A stretch of 64,000 nucleotides of DNA, taken from the human T2T-CHM13v2.0 reference genome, Homo sapiens. A program made the position numbers and the translations under genes. Every line of letters starts with the position of its first letter. The first letter of the stretch is position 1. The notes beneath the pieces were generated by a model that was not told the origin of the DNA, did not search any database, and saw only the letters and a program-made list of their open reading frames with translations. Where the stretch lies: NCBI RefSeq assembly GCF_009914755.1, contig NC_060927.1. One strand, 5' to 3'. Shown in pieces: positions 48,635-56,292 of the stretch.

Positions 48635-48991
<357 letters not shown>

Positions 48992-49521
48992 TGAAATGCA
49001 TTTCTTAAGTAAGAATACTTGAAAGCGAAAATCAATGATCCATGGGCAAATGGATCAGAATGGATATTTTCTTAGCAGGCATGAAAACACATTAATTTCT
49101 TTAAACATCTCCATCAGAGTTCTGGGATGACCAGGTGCATTGTCAATGTGCAATAATATTTTGAAAAGAATCTATTGCCGAGCAGTAGGTCTTGATGGTG
49201 GGCTTAAATGTAATCAGTAAACTATGCTGTAAACAAATGTGCTATATTAAAAGATTTGTCATTCTATTTACAGAGCACAGGCAGAGTCAATTTAGTATAC
49301 TTTTAAGGGTCTTAGAATTTTTGGAAAGGCACATAAGCTTTGGTTTCAATTTAAAGTCACCAGCTGCATTAGCTACTAACAAGAGAGTTTGCGTCTCCTT
49401 TGAAATTTTAAAGCTGGGCATTTGCTTCTCTTTAGCTGCTTCCCTTTAGTCCTAGATGGCATCTTCTTCCAATATAAGGTTGTTTTACCTCCATGGAAAA
49501 CCTGTTTTTTACTGTGGATGC

Positions 49522-49932
49522 TTTCATGCACCTCCATGTGAAGAGACCACCAAACAGGCTTTGTGTGAGCAATAAAGCTTTTAATCACCCGAGAGCAGGC
49601 GGGCTGAATCCGAAAAGAGACTCTGCGAAGGGAGATAAGGGTGGAGCTGTCTTATAGGATTTGGGGAGATAAAGGAAAATTACAGTCAAAGGGGGGTTGT
49701 TCTCTGGCGGGCAGAGTTGGGGTCACAAGGTGCTCAGTAGGGGAGCTTTTGAGCCAGGATGAGCCAGGAGAAGGAATTTCACAAGACAATGTCATCAGTT
49801 AAGGCAGGAACAGGCCATTTTCACTTCTTTTGTGGTGGAATGTCATCAGTTAAGGCAGGAACTGGCCTTCTGGATGTGTACATGCAGGTCACAGGGGGTA
49901 TGATGGCTTAGCTTGGGCTCAGAGGCCTGACA
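49522..49932 (-). mobile_element. HERV-H 3' LTR (LTR7 family), complete
   Basis: Minus strand reads TGTCAGGCCTCTGAGCCCAAGCTAAGCC...GCATGAAA; preceded by the purine-rich PPT (49933-49945); left TSD GATGC at 49517-49521. Confidence 0.97.
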
Positions 49933-51310
49933 TTCCTGTCTTCTTATATTAATAAGAAAAATAAAATGAAATAGTGGTAAAGTGTTGGGATGGTGAAAAT
50001 TTTTGGAGGTGGTATGGAGAGATAATGGGCAATGTTTCTCAGGGCTGCTTCGAGCAGGATTAGGGGTGGCGTGGGAACCTAGAGTGGGAGAGATTAAGCT
50101 GAAGGAAGATTTTGTGGTAAAAGGTGATATTGTGGAGTTGTTAGAAGAAATATTTGTGGTGTAGAATTATTGGTGATGGCCTGGATACGGTTTTGTATGA
50201 ATTGAAAAACTAAATGGAATAAGAGAAGGAGAAAAACAGGTATAAAAGGTCTAAGAATTGGGAGGACCTAGGACATCTGATTAGAGAGTGCCTAAGGAGA
50301 TTCAGCATAGTCCTGCCAGCAGATTATTTATTTACTTCAAGAGTTTAGAGTGGCAGTATGGGGATAGCACCAGGAGATATCAACTGTGATGGCTTGGAGA
50401 AATAATGCAAACTGGCAGTGTAAACAAGAGTAGGGCATGTATGAGTAGTTGAGAACAGTGAATAGGAGTATGACTAGATAGAAGATAGTAGGGATGACAA
50501 GTTTTTTGGGGGCACAGTCTAAGTTGGTCTGGTGTCTGGAATGAGACTGGGGCCTAATAAAAAGGAGCATCTATACAGGAGCTCAAATGGGCTGTACACT
50601 GTAGCATCCTGAGGACAGGTCTGACTTCTGAGAAGCGAAAGTGGTAAAAGTATTGTCCAGTCCTTTTTAAGTTGTTGGCTGAGCTTGGTGAGGTGTGTTT
50701 TTAAAAGACATTTAGTCCATTCTACTTTTCTTGAAGACGGAGGACCATAAGGGATAAAGGTTTCACTGAATACTAAGAGCCTGAAAAACTGCTTGGCTGA
50801 TTTGACTAATAAAGGCTGGTCTGTTATCAGACTGTATAGTGGTGGGAAGGCTAAACTGAGGAATTATGTCTGACAGAAAGGAAGAAATGACTGCGGTGGC
50901 CTTCTCAGACCCTGTAGGAAAGGCCTCTACCTATCCAGTGAAAGTGTCTACCTAGACTAAGAGGTATTTTAGTTATCTGACTCGGGACATGTTGAGTAAA
51001 GCTAATTTGCCAGTCCTGGGTGGGGGCAAATCCTTGAGCTTGATGTGTAGGGAAGGGAGGGGGCCTGAATAATCCCTGAGGAGTAGTAGAATAGCAGATG
51101 GAACACTGAGAAGTTATTTCCTTGAGGATAGATTTCCACGATGGAAAGGAAATGAGAGGTTCTAAGAGGTGGGATAGTGGCTTGTACTATAGCATAGCCT
51201 GCCTTTGCTGGTGTGGCAATTAGGCCTGGTGGAACTGCCATCAATAAATCAAGCATGATCAAGGCGAGGAAGAGGAAAGAAGGAAATATGGGGAAATGAG
51301 GTGAATGTCA
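49933..51310 (-). mobile_element. HERV-H internal 3' half (3' pol/env remnants)
   Basis: Minus strand starts TGACATTCACCTCATTTCCCC, continuing the pol sequence that stops at 55156 on the plus strand, and runs to the PPT. Confidence 0.9.
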
Positions 51311-51446
51311 AGAAGAGTTTATAAGCTTTAAAAGGCCATGCTGTAACAGGTGAATGATAACAGGCTTTAATCCTTTCAAAGCATGCTATAGGATAAGATA
51401 TTGGCATTGAGCAGGGTAAGAGTGATTAGGTTTTAATAGGATGGTA
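51310..51446 (-). repeat. 137-bp inverted duplicate of HERV-H pol 54183-54319
   Basis: Ungapped alignment with 10 mismatches in 137 nt. Confidence 0.97.
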
Positions 51447-51728
51447 GCCTTAACTGATGACATTGTCTTGTGAAATTCCTTCTCCTGGCTCATCCTGGCT
51501 CAAAAGCTCCCCTACTGAGCACCTTGTGACCCCCACTCTGCTTGCCAGAGAACAACCCCCCTTACTGTAATTTTCCTTTATCTACCCAAATCCTATAAAA
51601 CAGCCCCACCCTTATCTCCCTTCGCTGAGTCTCTTTTCAGACTCAGCCCGCCTGCACCCAGGTGATTAAAAGCTTTATTGCTCACACAAAGCCTGTTTGG
51701 TAGTCTCTTCACACAGACACACATGAAA
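51447..51728 (+). mobile_element. HERV-H 5' LTR (LTR7 family) lacking the first ~127 nt of U3
   Basis: Matches the reverse complement of 49522-49805; TATAAAA at 51594-51600; ATTAAA at 51665-51670; followed by the PBS. Confidence 0.97.
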
Positions 51729-51730
51729 TT

Positions 51731-51748
51731 TGGTGCCGTGACTCGGAT
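51731..51748 (+). other. Primer-binding site for tRNA-His
   Basis: TGGTGCCGTGACTCGGAT is complementary to the 3' 18 nt of tRNA-His. Confidence 0.95.
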
Positions 51749-51871
51749 CGGAGGACCTCCCTTAAGAGATCAATCCCCTGTCCTCCTGTTCTTTGCTCCG
51801 TGAGAAAGATCCACCTATGACCTCAGGTCCTCAGACCAACCAGCCCAAGAAATATCTCACCAATTTCAAAT

Positions 51872-51880
51872 CCAGTAAGC
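51872..51880 (+). promoter_or_regulatory. HERV-H leader splice-donor position (CCA|GTAAGC)
   Basis: About 150 nt downstream of the LTR, where the HERV-H major donor lies; the -1 base is A rather than G, so it may be weakened. Confidence 0.55.
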
Positions 51881-52499
51881 GGCCTATTTTTACTCTCTTC
51901 TCCAACCTCCCTCACTATCCCTCAACCACTTTCTCCTTTCAATCTTGGTGCCACACTTCAATCTCTCCCTTCTCTTAATTTCAGTTCCTTTCATTTTCTG
52001 GTAGAGACAAAGGAGACACGTTTTATCCATGGACCCAAAACTCTGGCACCAGTCACGGACTGGGAAGGGAGCCTTCCCTTGGTGTTTAATCATTTCAGGG
52101 ATGGATGCCTCTCTGATTATTCACTCACGTTTCAGAGGTGTCAGACCATGCAAGGACGCCTGCCTTGATCCTTCACCCTTAGTGGCAAGTCCTGCTTTTC
52201 TGGGGGAGGGGGAAGTACCCCAACCTCTTCTCTCCGTGGTTCTACCCCTTCTCTGCTTTTCTGGGGGAGGGGCAAGAACCCCTCAACCCCTTCTCCTTCA
52301 CCCTTAGCGACAAGTCCCACTTTTCTAGGGGACAAGAATCCCCAACCCCTTATTTCCATGCCCCGACCCCTTTCCCACTTTTCTGAAGGGTAAGAACCCC
52401 CGAACCCCTTCCCTCCGTGTCTCTACTCTCTCTTTTCTCTGGGCTTGCCTCCTTCACTATAGGCAACCTTCCACCCTCCATTCCTCCATCTCCCTTAGC

Positions 52500-53720
52500 C
52501 TGTGGTCTCAAGAACTTAAAACCTCTTCAACTCACACCTGACCTAAAACCTAAATGCCTTATTTTCTTCTGCAATGCTGCTTGACCTCAATACAAACTTG
52601 ACAGTGGTTCCAAATAGCCAGAAAATGACACTTTCAATTTTTCCATCCTGCAAGATCTAAATAATTCTTGTCATAAAATAGGCAAATGGCCTGAGGTGCC
52701 TGATGTCCAGGCATTCTTTTACACATCGGTCCCTCCCTAGTCTCTGTGCCCAGTGCAACTCGTCCCAAATCTTCCTTCTTTCCCTCCCGCCTGTACCCTC
52801 AGTCCCAACCCCAAGCATCGCTGAGTCTTTCTAATCTTCCTTTTCTACAGACCCATCTGACCTCTCCCCTCCTCCCCAGGCTGCTCCTTGCCAGGCCAAG
52901 CTAGGGCCGAATTCTTCCTCAGCCTCCACTCCTCCACCGGGTAATCTTTTTATCACCTCCCCTCCTTACACCTGGTCCAGTTTACAGTTTCATTCTGTGA
53001 GTAGCCCTCCCCTACCTGCCCAGCAATTTCCTCTTAAAAAGATGGCTGAAGCTAAAGGCATAGTCAAGGTTAATGCTCCTTTTTCTTTATCAGACCTCTC
53101 CCAAATCAGTGAGCATTTAGGCTCTTTCATCAAATATGAAAAACCCAGCCCAGTTCATGGCTCATTCCGCAGCAACCCTGAGACGCTTTACAGCCCTAGA
53201 CCCTAAAAGGTCAAAAGGCCGTCTTATTCTCAATATACATTTTATTACCCAATCTGCTCCTGACATTAAATAAAACTACAAAAATTAAATTCCAGCCCTC
53301 AAACCCCACAACAGGACTTAATTAACCTCACCTTCAAGGTGTACAATAATAGAGTAGAAGCAGCCAAGTAGCAATGTATTTCTGAGTTGCAATTCCTTGC
53401 CTCCACTGTGAGACAAACCCCAGCCACATCTCCAGCACACAAGAACTCCAAATGCCTGAACCACAGCTCCCAGTGGTTCCTCCAGAACCTCCTCCCCCAG
53501 GAGCTTGCTACAAGTGCCGGAAATCTGGCCACTGGGCCAAGGGATGCCCACAGCCCAGGATTCCTCCTAAGCCTTATCCCATCTGTGTGGGACCCCACTG
53601 AAAATCAGACTGTTCAACTCACCTGGCAGCCACTCCCAGAGCCCCTGGAACTCTGGCCCAAGGCTCTCTGACTGACTCCTTCCCAGATCTTCTCGACTTA
53701 GTGGCTGAAGACTGACACTG
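52500..53720 (+). pseudogene. gag: HERV-H gag remnant with an NC zinc knuckle
   Basis: CYKCRKSGHWAKGC (CCHC) at 53506-53547; the second knuckle is broken by a stop; start is approximate. Confidence 0.8.
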
Positions 53721-53781
53721 CCTGATCACCTGGGAAGCCCCCTAGACCATCACGGACACCAAGCTTTGAGTAACTCTCACA

Positions 53782-54141
53782 GTGGAAAGTAAGTCCGTCC
53801 CCTTCTTAATCAATATGGAGGCTACCCACTCCACATTACCTTCTTTTCAAAGGCCTGTTTCCCTTGCTTCCATAACTGTTGTTCATATTGACGGCCAGGC
53901 TTCTAAACCTCTTAAAACTCCCCAACTCTGGTGCCAACTTAAACAATACTCTTTTCAGCACTCCTTTATAGTTATCCCCACCTGCCCAGTTCCCTTATTA
54001 GGCCGAGATGCTTTAACTAAATTATCTGCTTCCCTGACTAGTCCTGGGCTACAGCCACACCTCATTGCCGCCTTTTCCCCCAGTTCAAAGCCTCCTTCAC
54101 ATCCTCCCCTTGTATCTCCCCACCTTAACCCACAAGTATAA
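53782..54141 (+). pseudogene. pro: HERV-H protease remnant
   Basis: FLINMEATHSTL (degenerate DTGA site) and PVPLLGRD motif. Confidence 0.85.
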
Positions 54142-54162
54142 GACACCTCTACTCCCTCTTTA

Positions 54163-55156
54163 GTGACCGATCATGCACCCCTTACCATCCCATTAAAACC
54201 TAATCACTCTTACCCTGATCAATGCCAATATCCCATCCCACAGCATGCTTTGAAAGGATTAAATCCTGTTATCACTCGCCTGTTACAGCATGGCCTTTTA
54301 AAGCCTATAAACTCTTCTTACCATTCCCCCATTTTACCTGTCCTAAAACCAGACAAGGCTTACAGGTTAGTTCAGAATCTGCGCCTTATCAACCAAATTG
54401 TTTTGCCTATCCACCCCGTGGTGCCAAACTCCTATACTCTCCTATCCTCAATACCTCCCTCCACAACCCATTATTCTGTTCTGGATCTCAAACATGCTTT
54501 CTTTACTATTCCTTTGCACCCTTCATCCCAGCCTCTCTTTGCTTTCACTTAGACTGACCCTGACACCCATTAGGCTCAGCAAATTACCTGGGCTGTACTG
54601 CCACAAGGCTTCACAGACAGCTCCCATTACTTCAGTCAAGCCCAAATTTCATCCTCAGCTGTTACCTATCTCGGCATAATTCTCATAAAAACACACGTGC
54701 TCTCCCTGCTGATCGTGTCCGATTAATCTCCCAAACCTCAATCCCTTACAAAACAACTCCTTTCCTTCCTATGCATGGTTACTGTGGTCAGGATTCTTAC
54801 ACAAGAGCCGGGACCGCCCCCTGTAGCCTTTCTGTCCAAACAACTTGACCTTACTGTTTTAGCCTAGCCCTCATGTCTGTGTGCAGTGGCTGCCGCTGCT
54901 TTAATACTTTTAGAGGCCCTAAAAATCACAAACTATGCTCAACTCACTCTCTACATTTCTCATTACTTCCAAAATCTATTTTCTTCCTCATACCTGATGC
55001 ATATACTTTCTGCTCCCCGGCTCCTTCAGCTGTACTCACTCTTTGTTAAGTCCCACAATTACCATTGTTCCTGGCCCAGACTTCAGTCCGGCCTCCCGCA
55101 TTATTCCTGATACCACACCTGACCCCCATGATTGTATCTCTCTGATCCACCTGACA
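54163..55156 (+). pseudogene. pol: HERV-H pol (RT) remnant with stops; ends at the host junction
   Basis: QYPIP...SPILPVLKPDKAYRLVQNLRLINQIV...SVLDLKHAFFTIPL; right TSD GATGC at 55157-55161. Confidence 0.92.
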
Positions 55157-56292
55157 GATGCCTTCATTAACGATCTCATGTAGATTTTCTGGATAACTTC
55201 CTGCAGCTTGTCCATCAGCACTTACTGCTTCACTTTGCCTTGTTTTGTTATGGAGATGGCTCTTTTCTTAAACTCTATGAGCCAGCCACTTCTAGTTACC
55301 AATTTTTCTTCTGCAGCTTCCTCACTTCTCTCAGCTTTCACAGAATTGAAGAGAGGCAGGGCCTTGCTCCGGAATAGGCTTGGGCTTAAGGGAATATTAT
55401 GGCTGGTTTGATCTTCTATCCACACCATTAAAACTTCTTCCCTATCAGCAATAAGCCTGCTTTGCTTTCTTATCATTTGTGTATTTACTAGAACAGCACT
55501 TTTAATTTTTGTTAAGAACCTTTCCTATGCATTCACAACTTGGCTAGATATTTTGTGCAAGGAACCTAGCTTTGGGCCTATCTCAGCTTGTGACATGTCT
55601 TCCTCATTGAGCTTAATCATAACCAGCTTTTGACTAAAAGTGAGAGACATAGAGGCCATTATAGAATTATTAATTGGCCTAATTTCTATATCACTGGTCT
55701 CAGGAAATAGGAAAACCCAAAGAGAGGGATACAGATGGAAGAATGTTTTTCAATGAAACAGTCAGAACACACACAACATGTATCAATTAAATTCTTCATC
55801 TTATATGGACATGGATTGTGACATAACAGAACAATTACAACAGTAACATCAAAGATCACTGATCGCAGATTACCATACAGGTATAATAATAGTGAACAAG
55901 TTTGAAATATTGTGAGAATTACCAAAATGTGACATGGAGACATGAAGTGAGCTCATGCTGTTGGAAAAATAGCACTGATAGACTTGCTGGACGAAGGGTT
56001 GCTGCAAATCTTCTAATTGTAAAAGGTACAATATATGTGAAGCACAGTGAGATCTGATCCAATAAAACAAAGTATGCCTTCATGTGTTTTTCAAATAGTT
56101 TCTCCCAGTCTGTGGCTTGTCTTCTCATTCTCATTTTAGTGCCTTTCACAGAAAAGTTATTAATTTTAATGAAATGCAGCTTATCAATTATTTCATCATG
56201 ATTTGTGCCTTTGTGATGTATCTAAAAGGTCATCACTAAACCTAAGGTCATCTAGATTTTCTCCTACATTATCTTATAGGAGTTTTACAGTT

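What the first reader, a model, noticed from the sequence alone, without database searches (positions are those of the whole stretch)
51310..51446. Templated 137-bp pol insert with strand-biased C>T changes (APOBEC3G-like, opposite to the usual polarity)
Seen: 10 mismatches against 54183-54319. In viral-sense orientation 7 are non-CpG C (source) versus T (insert), 5 of them in a 5'-CC context (CCCAT>CCTAT, TCCCA>TCTTA, CCCAC>CCTAT, GCCT>GCTT). One more is a CpG G>A and two are transversions. Known: APOBEC3G deaminates CC in single-stranded DNA and normally gives G>A on the viral sense strand. Inference: this piece was transiently single-stranded as sense DNA, as expected for a displaced template-switch product. 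Caveat: total divergence (about 7%) is similar to my by-eye LTR-LTR divergence (about 20 differences in 280 nt), so only the polarity and context are unusual, and the numbers are small.
Basis: partly seen in the sequence, partly recalled or inferred. Interest (0 to 1): 0.7.

Follow-up and report, generated by a model that had tools for sequence, protein, structure and literature searches.

The report
Deaminase-edited junction in a rearranged HERV-H
The 137-base piece sits where the two halves of a scrambled ancient retrovirus copy are joined head to head, and it carries a real, one-stranded burst of C-to-T changes of the kind made by the antiviral enzyme APOBEC3G, most likely while the viral DNA was being copied, before it entered the genome.

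Summary
Window 51310-51446 differs from 54183-54319 at 10 of 137 bases. At all 7 C/T sites, 25-29 of the 28-29 copies in each of two comparison sets carry C, so T is derived in the insert. The two transversions are private to the other copy.

The "insert" is not a simple insertion. Window 49519-55147 is one HERV-H integration, flanked by a 5-bp duplication (GATGC). Its 5' part (LTR position 127 to a pol point "P") lies inverted against its 3' part. The 137-bp piece is the tip of the 3' part at that head-to-head junction.

The edits extend beyond the piece. On the window + strand, GG>AG hits 11 of 40 GG sites in 51218-51765 (all within 51262-51765), against 3 of 232 elsewhere. They cross both junctions on one physical strand. 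In the adjoining LTR/leader they have the usual viral polarity.

A second locus (contig 12) holds a 5'LTR-to-P "half provirus" that ends at the same base and has its own 5-bp duplication. P therefore acts as a U3-like end formed before integration.

Best reading: an aberrant reverse-transcription product, edited by an APOBEC3G-type deaminase on one single-stranded stretch. Primate orthologues could not be checked.

The parts
49514..49518 (.). Left copy of the 5-bp target-site duplication GATGC
   Evidence: GATGC lies directly before the reverse-complemented LTR end (49519) and directly after pol point P (55148-55152); the left and right flanks hit the same two copies of an old interspersed repeat at adjoining coordinates (within ~6 bp), so the flanks were once contiguous.
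49519..49931 (-). Complete LTR7 (3' LTR of the provirus), minus orientation, 413 bp
   Evidence: inverted-repeat arms 49522-49694 and 49689-49805 pair with the + LTR. It starts (reverse complement) TGTCAGGCC at 49931 and ends ...GCATGAAA at 49519.
49932..51309 (-). 3' half of the internal region (polypurine-tract end back to pol point P), minus orientation
   Evidence: 51310->~50637 aligns at 81-95% to other HERV-H loci about 820 bp downstream of where the 137-bp piece aligns (18 of 28 loci with a second match of >=590 nt); it begins (sense) at (T)GACATTCACC, overlapping by 4-5 bases the end of the + half. 49900-50450 had fewer than 15 comparison copies and was not assessed.
51310..51446 (-). 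The 137-bp pol piece (the finding); counterpart of 54183-54319; 7 derived sense C>T
51447..51728 (+). LTR7 from LTR position 127 to its end, plus orientation (5' LTR lacking its first 126 bases)
   Evidence: (arm 51447-51563 pairs with 49689-49805 at 97%) and alignment. 51447 pairs with 49805, which is LTR position 127.
51729..55147 (+). Primer-binding site, leader, gag-pro-pol up to point P, plus orientation; ends ...CCACCTGACA
   Evidence: 97-99% identity of 54420-54620 to many copies. One search shows other copies continue TTCACCCC after P, whereas here host DNA follows.
55148..55152 (.). Right copy of the target-site duplication GATGC
54183..54319 (+). Counterpart of the 137-bp piece inside the + half; carries 2 private transversions (54218, 54264)
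51262..51765 (-). Edited tract: the cytosines of the window minus strand were deaminated. Window + G>A at 51262, 51299, 51324, 51354, 51388, 51390, 51395, 51396, 51438, 51702, 51752, 51764, 51765. Two CpG sites (51218, 51602) are counted apart.
   Evidence: 51602 is shared with the other LTR (49648) and is therefore not part of the burst.
55138..55147 (+). Pseudo-U3 end. In this locus 55141-55147 reads CCTGACA, the reverse complement of the LTR start TGTCAGG. In ordinary copies the motif continues CCTGACATTC, the same 10-mer as the reverse complement of the polypurine-tract end plus U3 start (49927-49936).
   Evidence: The same end is used at contig 12.

Best explanation
Window 49519-55147 is a single HERV-H integration that entered the genome already rearranged. 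It is a linear reverse-transcription product in which the 5' part (LTR position 127 through gag-pro-pol to point P) is joined head to head to the 3' part (a 137-base pol stretch, an ~820-base copy-choice deletion, then pol from P through the 3' LTR). One end of the molecule was the normal U5 end. The other was pol point P, whose sequence mimics the U3 end, so integrase could use it; hence the 5-bp duplication. Around the head-to-head junction about 500 nucleotides of one strand (the window minus strand) were single-stranded for a time. An APOBEC3G-type deaminase converted C to U there in CC/CCC context. That strand is minus polarity in the LTR/leader, giving the usual G>A. It is plus polarity in the 137-base piece and the start of the 3' half, giving the unusual sense C>T. 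Shown: the anatomy, the duplication, the derived state, the strand and context of the changes, and the second locus ending at P. Inferred: the enzyme, the timing, and how the strand came to be single-stranded. My proposed route is that the plus-strand primer with its first 7 DNA bases re-anneals to genomic RNA at P through 10 complementary bases. It then primes a second minus-polarity strand. The regular minus strand stops at P, jumps to a similar sequence 820 bases on, runs 137 bases, and the two 3' ends then copy each other. The junction region is left as a displaced or unpaired strand.
For: Anatomy. Single insertion: GATGC on both sides, and flanks adjoining in two paralogous repeat copies. 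Derived T at 7 of 7 sites. Rates (window + G>A per G): insert 7 of 42, its two flanks 8 of 86, rest 13 of 877. Context in 51218-51765: GG 11 of 40, GT 2 of 22, GA 0 of 34, GC 0 of 25, CpG 2 of 7; background GG 3 of 232; GG against other non-CpG contexts p=8e-5. Seven of the 11 are GGG, i.e. CCC on the edited strand (read from the contexts). Scan permutation p=5e-5 for 550 bp and 7e-4 for 137 bp; there is no cluster of the complementary change. Bins: 0 of 31 GG sites in 50901-51217, then 2 of 14, 5 of 15, 0 of 2 and 4 of 9, then 0 of 2 in 51766-51950, 0 of 35 in 51951-52400 and 0 of 68 in 52401-55147. Empirical control: ours ranks first of 51, 28 and 49 copies in the three adjoining stretches. 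One strand is edited on both sides of the junction, unlike two resected break ends, which would flip strand (inference). Pre-integration origin: contig 12 has LTR7 start to P (~3.94 kb) with GTTTG on both sides and non-HERV DNA after P. Of the 369 places matching the 24-mer-plus-VV pattern with <=2 mismatches in all, the 11 that do not read TT after P were all inspected. Only ours and contig 12 run into foreign DNA; the 9 others continue as pol with a point change or a small deletion. The 10-mer at P is identical to the polypurine-tract-end/U3-start junction, whereas only 7 of the 10 could serve at an integrated 5' LTR. The a+137/P junction lies in an imperfect direct repeat. The two private changes of the source are absent from the patch, so the duplication is about as old as the copy. 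Literature: sense G>A clusters outnumber C>T clusters >10-fold in ERVs, and GG is the human APOBEC3G motif (PMC4866542, passages). Inversions were found in 6% of 531 HIV-1 proviruses (PMC6235535, passages).
Against: The tract limits 51218-51765 were chosen after seeing the data. The scan statistic corrects for position but not for my choice of window width. With stricter calling (<=5% sharing, >=90% majority) the GG>AG counts fall to 1 of 12, 3 of 13, 0 of 2 and 1 of 6 in the four bins, against 2 of 229 elsewhere. The signal persists but rests on 5 sites. The rest of the putative second minus strand (51951-55147) shows 0 of 103 GG sites edited, so only a short part was exposed, and I cannot say why. 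How a plus-polarity stretch became single-stranded is not shown. [quoted passage not shown] The contig 12 locus proves the pseudo-end but is not a head-to-head structure. The enzyme is inferred from context alone. No orthologous primate locus could be examined, so neither a single burst nor rearrangement at integration is demonstrated. 469 of 5629 bases (mainly 49900-50450) lacked enough comparison copies.
Confidence: 0.6

Rival explanations
1. Rearrangement after integration. A normal minus-oriented provirus was inverted in the chromosome by replication-based template switching (three switches, one through the 7-bp inverted microhomology TGTCAGG/CCTGACA). The exposed nascent strand was hit by a nuclear deaminase, as in mutation showers near rearrangement breakpoints.
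For: There is microhomology at the right junction (7 nt), a templated-looking 137-bp filler, a 126-bp loss and an inverted segment. Strand-coordinated clusters consistent with APOBEC3G are reported in hominid germline evolution (PMC4864454, passages).
Against: A second, independent locus ends at exactly the same base P with its own 5-bp duplication and no inversion, which a chromosomal accident does not predict. Both breaks at P coincide within 5 bases. The context is CC, with 0 of 34 sites in the TC-type (GA) context that Pinto et al. list for APOBEC3B. A long break-induced nascent strand should carry edits along the whole inverted segment, yet 0 of 103 GG sites are edited in 51951-55147. Two resected ends would show opposite strands on the two sides (one search shows one strand).
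Confidence: 0.15
2. The cluster is unrelated to the rearrangement. A later germline deamination burst hit the region around the plus-oriented LTR7 promoter, for example on the non-template strand of divergent transcription.
For: The tract (51262-51765) is centred on an LTR7. Pinto et al. report stronger APOBEC3G-motif enrichment in clusters within transcribed regions. HERV-H LTR7 activity in early embryonic cells is recalled, not tested.
Against: The tract is centred on the junction, and density peaks in the pol piece (5 of 15 GG sites). Of 27 other copies, 26 show 0-1 and one shows 3 such changes in the U5-leader stretch, so this is not a general property of LTR7 promoters.
Confidence: 0.1
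3. The T alleles were inherited. The 137-bp piece was copied from a different, already edited or divergent HERV-H genome (for example the co-packaged RNA), or the excess is ordinary decay or polymerase error.
For: The template cannot be identified. Retroviruses package two genomes (textbook knowledge).
Against: No copy among 57 carries more than 3 of the 13 derived alleles. The same kind of change continues into the flanking body and LTR/leader, which are not part of the piece. All 7 private changes in the piece are one type, against a mixed spectrum elsewhere (34 private changes of 11 types in 2465 bases). An error-prone polymerase would not give CC specificity.
Confidence: 0.08

Closest known systems
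APOBEC3G hypermutation footprints in endogenous retroviruses (Knisbacher and Levanon 2016, PMC4866542; passages read)
   Same: Strand-coordinated clustered transitions, derived relative to the family, in the GG (= CC on the edited strand) context typical of human APOBEC3G. They were fixed in the germline with the element.
   Different: Here the tract is short (~500 nt) and crosses a head-to-head junction. Part of it therefore reads C>T on the viral sense strand, the class that the paper used as a negative control (>10-fold rarer).
Defective proviruses with inversions arising during reverse transcription (HIV-1 reservoir studies; PMC6235535, passages)
   Same: An integrated provirus with an internal segment in reverse orientation, and a proper integration signature.
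   Different: This is an ancient fixed germline copy. One terminus is an internal pol sequence that mimics the U3 end. I found no description of that in one full-text search. The paper gives no junction anatomy to compare.
Mutation showers (kataegis) at rearrangement breakpoints; APOBEC3G-like clusters in hominid evolution (Pinto et al. 2016, PMC4864454; passages)
   Same: C-coordinated clusters on one strand next to a junction, with a CC/CCC motif.
   Different: The second locus with the same end and its own duplication points to a pre-integration, not a chromosomal, event. The TC context of the nuclear enzymes is absent (0 of 34).
Late-stage displaced strands and DNA flaps in reverse transcription (PMC12548423, passages; PMC7197481, passages)
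   Same: Transient single-stranded DNA created by strand displacement late in reverse transcription is a known deaminase target. The cited case is unequal editing of the two LTRs.
   Different: Those cases concern the minus strand of the 3' LTR or plus-strand flaps at central polypurine tracts. Here the exposed stretch spans an aberrant junction.

Membership tests
APOBEC3G-type editing footprint | Cluster of C>T (or G>A) changes confined to one strand | tested here: met
   15 window + G>A against 1 C>T and 3 other changes in 51218-51765. Scan permutation p=5e-5 (550 bp) and 7e-4 (137 bp).
APOBEC3G-type editing footprint | Edited C preceded by C (CC, stringent CCC) | tested here: met
   GG 11 of 40 against other non-CpG contexts 2 of 81 (p=8e-5). 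Background GG 3 of 232. 7 of 11 are CCC (contexts). In the 137-bp piece alone: 5 of 15 against 2 of 27, p=0.077, not significant on its own.
APOBEC3G-type editing footprint | Changes are derived relative to the family, not inherited variants | tested here: met
   At each of the 7 sites, 25-29 of the 28-29 copies in each set carry C. Sharing is scattered, at most 3 of 13 sites in any copy.
APOBEC3G-type editing footprint | G>A on the viral sense strand (minus-strand cDNA edited) | tested here: not met
   Not met in the pol piece and the start of the 3' half (sense C>T). Met in the adjoining LTR/leader (51702-51765). All lie on one physical strand.
APOBEC3G-type editing footprint | Single burst (all changes of one age) | not testable with these tools
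   No primate orthologues are held. Only the window's own assembly could be searched.
HERV-H / LTR7 provirus | LTR7 at the ends, primer-binding site after the 5' LTR, gag-pro-pol homology, 5-bp target-site duplication | tested here: met
(hundreds to thousands of first-look candidates; 88-99% identity). GATGC is on both sides.
Breakpoint mutation shower by nuclear APOBEC3A/B | TC (TCW) context of the edited C | tested here: not met
   0 of 34 GA sites changed in the tract. Motif as listed by Pinto et al..
Provirus rearranged before integration | The whole rearranged unit is bounded by one target-site duplication, and the unusual end recurs at an independent integration | tested here: met
   GATGC at 49514 and 55148; flanks contiguous in paralogues. 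The contig 12 element ends at the same base with GTTTG on both sides.

The most novel reading that the evidence does not exclude
HERV-H pol carries, on its antisense strand, an exact 10-base copy of the junction between the polypurine tract and the start of U3. During reverse transcription the plus-strand primer can restart there. This yields sub-genomic DNAs whose end at P is accepted by integrase. One outcome is a plain half provirus (contig 12). Another is this head-to-head chimera, whose junction preserves a fossil of a displaced, plus-polarity single strand edited by APOBEC3G some tens of millions of years ago.
Probability: 0.4. Interest if true: 0.75.

Novelty: new variant of a known kind. 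Interest (0 to 1): 0.6.

Why it matters
APOBEC3 footprints in endogenous retroviruses are normally read as G>A on the sense strand, and sense C>T clusters are treated as noise or as a negative control. This locus shows that a sense C>T cluster can be genuine when the element is rearranged. The physical strand, not the viral sense, is the right frame of reference. It also gives a datable fossil of an aberrant reverse-transcription intermediate. Together with the contig 12 locus, it points to an internal pseudo-end in HERV-H pol that integrase could use. That makes a concrete question testable: how often do ancient retroviruses integrate sub-genomic or chimeric DNAs, and through which sequence mimicry? 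For annotation, the two "HERV-H fragments" in opposite orientation here are one insertion, not two.

Tried and rejected
(1) Two separate proviruses head to head: rejected, because one 5-bp duplication bounds the whole unit and the flanks are contiguous in paralogous repeat copies.

(2) Autointegration (inversion circle): rejected, because the internal junction is at LTR position 127, not at an LTR end, and the unit has host junctions at both ends (product types as described in PMC7197481).

(3) A related copy as donor of the T haplotype: the best genome match (contig 8, 93%) shares only 1 of the 13 sites.

(4) For contig 12 I first assumed the same head-to-head form and searched for its flank motif next to a reverse-complemented LTR end. 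This gave 127 matches, none near the locus among the 100 listed (27 not listed, all in the two-mismatch class on later contigs). The element turned out to be a plain 5'LTR-to-P half.

Four further candidates that I fetched were ordinary.

As a result 49900-50450 has too few comparison copies.

(8) PMC12657518 on aberrant strand transfers in HIV-1 has no mention of inversions. I did not find the recalled report of plus-strand C>T near the primer-binding site (Yu et al. 2004) in the library, so it stays a recollection.
Full report
**What is at the coordinates.** Window 51310-51446 is the reverse complement of 54183-54319 with 10 mismatches in 137 bases. Read in viral sense, these are:
- 7 sites with C in 54183-54319 and T in the insert;
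- 1 G/A difference at a CpG;
- 2 transversions.

Five of the seven C sites follow a C and two follow an A.

**Polarising the mismatches.** I did not build a consensus. I tallied alleles at the mismatch sites in 57 other HERV-H loci of the same assembly. Twenty-eight were picked by likeness to the insert. Twenty-nine were picked on a neighbouring pol stretch, so they were not selected on the sites in question.
- At each of the 7 C/T sites, 25-29 of the 28-29 copies in each set have C. T is therefore derived in the insert.
- At the two transversion sites the other copies carry the insert's base. These are private changes of the + copy (54218, 54264).
- The CpG site is polymorphic in the family (G 37, A 17, T 3).
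- No copy carries the T haplotype. Sharing is scattered, with at most 3 of 13 cluster sites in any one copy.

**Is 54183-54319 the template?** This cannot be shown.
- The patch and its neighbour share no private marker (0 columns).
- With the 7 sites masked, the patch matches its neighbour at 127 of 130, one other copy at 128 of 130 and several at 127 of 130.
- The best genome match of 51291-51446 is on contig 8 (93%, against 91% for the neighbour; 40 scored of 1053 candidates).

**Anatomy.** The piece is not an insert in a normal provirus. From left to right:
- host DNA ending GATGC (49514-49518);
- a complete LTR7 in minus orientation (49519-49931);
- HERV-H internal sequence in minus orientation (49932-51309), running from the polypurine-tract end back to a pol point I call P;
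- the 137-base pol piece, also minus (51310-51446);
- an LTR7 in plus orientation that starts at LTR position 127 (51447-51728);
- primer-binding site, leader, gag-pro-pol in plus orientation up to P (to 55147, ending CCACCTGACA);
- GATGC again (55148-55152), then host DNA.

The two host flanks hit the same two copies of an old interspersed repeat at adjoining coordinates, within about 6 bases. The whole 5.6 kb is therefore one insertion with a 5-bp target-site duplication.

In other HERV-H copies the 137-base stretch and the point where the minus-oriented body resumes lie about 820 bases apart (18 of 28 loci with a long second match). That junction lies in an imperfect direct repeat. The plus half ends, and the minus half begins, at the same place P, with 4-5 bases (TGACA) present on both.

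**The edited tract is larger than the piece.** I called private substitutions over the 5160 of 5629 bases that had at least 15 comparison copies. A substitution counted as private when at most 10% of other copies shared our base and at least 80% agreed on another base. This gave 94 changes.

| Region | Window + G>A per G | Test against the rest |
|---|---|---|
| The 137-bp piece | 7 of 42 | p=1.2e-5 |
| Its two flanks (51218-51309 and 51447-51765) | 8 of 86 | p=2.3e-4 |
| Everything else | 13 of 877 | - |

The flank limits were chosen after seeing the data. By context inside 51218-51765:

| Context (window +) | Changed |
|---|---|
| GG | 11 of 40 |
| GT | 2 of 22 |
| GA | 0 of 34 |
| GC | 0 of 25 |
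| CpG | 2 of 7 |
| GG outside the tract | 3 of 232 |

- Seven of the 11 GG sites are GGG, i.e. CCC on the edited strand (contexts).
- One of the two CpG changes (51602) is shared with the other LTR (49648), so it predates the burst.
- Placing the 28 G>A changes at random on G sites gives as dense a 550-bp window in 5e-5 of permutations, and as dense a 137-bp window in 7e-4. The complementary change shows no cluster.
- By bins, GG>AG is 0 of 31 (50901-51217), 2 of 14, 5 of 15 (the piece), 0 of 2, 4 of 9 (51601-51765), 0 of 2, 0 of 35, then 0 of 68 to the end of the plus half.
- Under stricter calling the four central bins drop to 1 of 12, 3 of 13, 0 of 2 and 1 of 6, against 2 of 229 elsewhere. 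The signal is weaker but still present.
- As an empirical control I applied the same call to every comparison copy. Ours ranks first in each of the three stretches: 5 against at most 2 among 50 others; 4 against 3, five copies with 1 and the remaining 21 with 0 among 27 others; 2 against at most 1 among 48 others.

**What the strand tells.** All these changes are G>A on the window + strand, so cytosines of the window minus strand were deaminated. That strand is viral minus polarity in the LTR/leader (the usual APOBEC polarity). The tract crosses both junctions, so the simplest reading is that one continuous single strand, already containing the junctions, was exposed. Two resected break ends would instead expose opposite strands on the two sides. 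This last step is inference.

**Before or after integration?** The right end of the unit reads CCTGACA, the reverse complement of the LTR start TGTCAGG. In ordinary copies pol continues CCTGACATTC. This is the same 10-mer as the reverse complement of the polypurine-tract end plus U3 start (GAA|TGTCAGG; window 49927-49936). Only 7 of those 10 bases could serve at an integrated 5' LTR, where host DNA precedes TGTCAGG.

I then asked whether other copies end at P.
- The 17-mer before P followed by a non-T base occurs at 7 places. Five continue as ordinary pol with a point change or a small deletion. One is ours. One, on contig 12, runs into non-HERV DNA.
- Fetching two small stretches of contig 12 showed pol ending at the same base, followed by GTTTG and unrelated sequence. 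A complete plus-oriented LTR7 starts about 3.94 kb upstream and is directly preceded by GTTTG.
- That element is therefore a 5'LTR-to-P half provirus with its own 5-bp duplication. Its identity to ours over the last 188 bases is 89% and its flanks differ, so it is independent.
- Four further candidates from a looser pattern were ordinary copies.

An internal end that twice carries an integrase-type duplication is hard to explain by chromosomal accidents. It is easy to explain if DNA ending at P is made before integration. In addition, the two private changes of the source stretch are absent from the patch, as expected if the duplication is as old as the copy. With only 2 sites this is weak evidence.

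**Proposed mechanism (inferred).**
1. The polypurine-tract RNA primer, with the first 7 DNA bases of the plus strand, re-anneals to genomic RNA at P through 10 complementary bases.
2. It is extended as a second minus-polarity strand through gag, leader, U5 and R, and after a strong-stop-like transfer into U3.
3. On its own, this gives the contig 12 type of product.
4. In our case the regular minus strand, arriving from the 3' end, stops at P (5-base overlap). It jumps to the similar sequence 820 bases on and runs 137 bases.
5. The two 3' ends then copy each other, joining LTR position 127 to the pol piece with no microhomology.
6. The junction region is a branch point where a strand is displaced or unpaired, and a packaged APOBEC3G-type enzyme edits about 500 nucleotides of it.

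The end-to-end template switching of gammaretroviral reverse transcriptases, the tRNA-His primer site and the age of HERV-H are recalled, not tested.

**Comparison with what is known.**
- Sense G>A clusters in GG context are the known APOBEC3G footprint in primate ERVs. Sense C>T clusters are >10-fold rarer and are used as a negative control (PMC4866542, passages).
- Late displacement of the 3' LTR minus strand as a second window for editing was proposed in 2025 (PMC12548423, passages).
- Plus-strand flaps at central polypurine tracts are known (PMC7197481, passages).
- Inversions made up 6% of 531 HIV-1 proviruses in one study (PMC6235535, passages).
- CC/CCC-type clusters also occur in hominid germline evolution (PMC4864454, passages), which keeps a post-integration reading alive.
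- One full-text search for HERV-H with target-site duplication, inversion, aberrant reverse transcription or polypurine tract found nothing on a pseudo-end in pol. This is a thin basis for claiming novelty.

**Limits.**
- Numbers are small: 13 non-CpG sites.
- The tract limits are post hoc.
- The enzyme is inferred from context.
- The single-strand intermediate is not shown.
- The rest of the plus half is unedited for reasons I cannot give.
- 49900-50450 lacked comparison copies.

**Verdict.** The "templated insert" framing needs replacing by [quoted passage not shown]. I rate it a new variant of a known kind, with interest 0.6.

Noticed in passing
L091/L092 (assembly contig 12: 88349942-88353885, + strand): A 'half provirus': complete LTR7, gag-pro-pol up to the same pol base P, flanked by GTTTG on both sides and by non-HERV DNA. 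It shows that P works as a U3-like integration end.
   Followed up: partly
window 49590-49666: The minus-oriented 3' LTR has 10 private changes of mixed types within 77 bases (14 in its 410 covered bases). This is far denser than the ~1.4% elsewhere, and they are not of deaminase type. It could be a patch from another LTR7 subtype, gene conversion or error-prone synthesis.
   Followed up: no
window 51700-51715 versus 49535-49550: Near the LTR end the three CpG sites decayed in opposite directions in the two LTRs: CA in the plus LTR, TG in the minus-oriented LTR (alignment). In the plus LTR the direction matches the strand of the edited tract.
   Followed up: no
window 49711-50211: The RefSeq 'enhancer' feature lies on the U3 part of the minus-oriented LTR7 and the adjoining polypurine-tract end of the provirus.
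   Followed up: no
L066 (assembly contig 23, near 15767515): Another HERV-H copy with 3 private GG>AG changes in the U5-leader stretch (5 G>A in all). This looks like an ordinary, usual-polarity editing footprint at the same place.
   Followed up: no
window 51569-51570 region (alignment columns 123-124): The plus LTR lacks 2 bases (TG) that are present in the other LTR and in three comparison copies.
   Followed up: no
window 52169-52407: Direct repeats of ~30-40 bases in the leader/gag region of the plus half (repeat finder families D2-D4). I did not check whether other HERV-H copies have them.
   Followed up: no
window 49000-49518 and 55153-55700: The provirus sits inside an old, very high-copy interspersed repeat (76-83% identity to its paralogues; 2652 and 1904 first-look candidates). 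By eye it resembles a Tigger-type DNA transposon (recalled, not tested). An Alu-like element lies at 48709-48963.
   Followed up: partly
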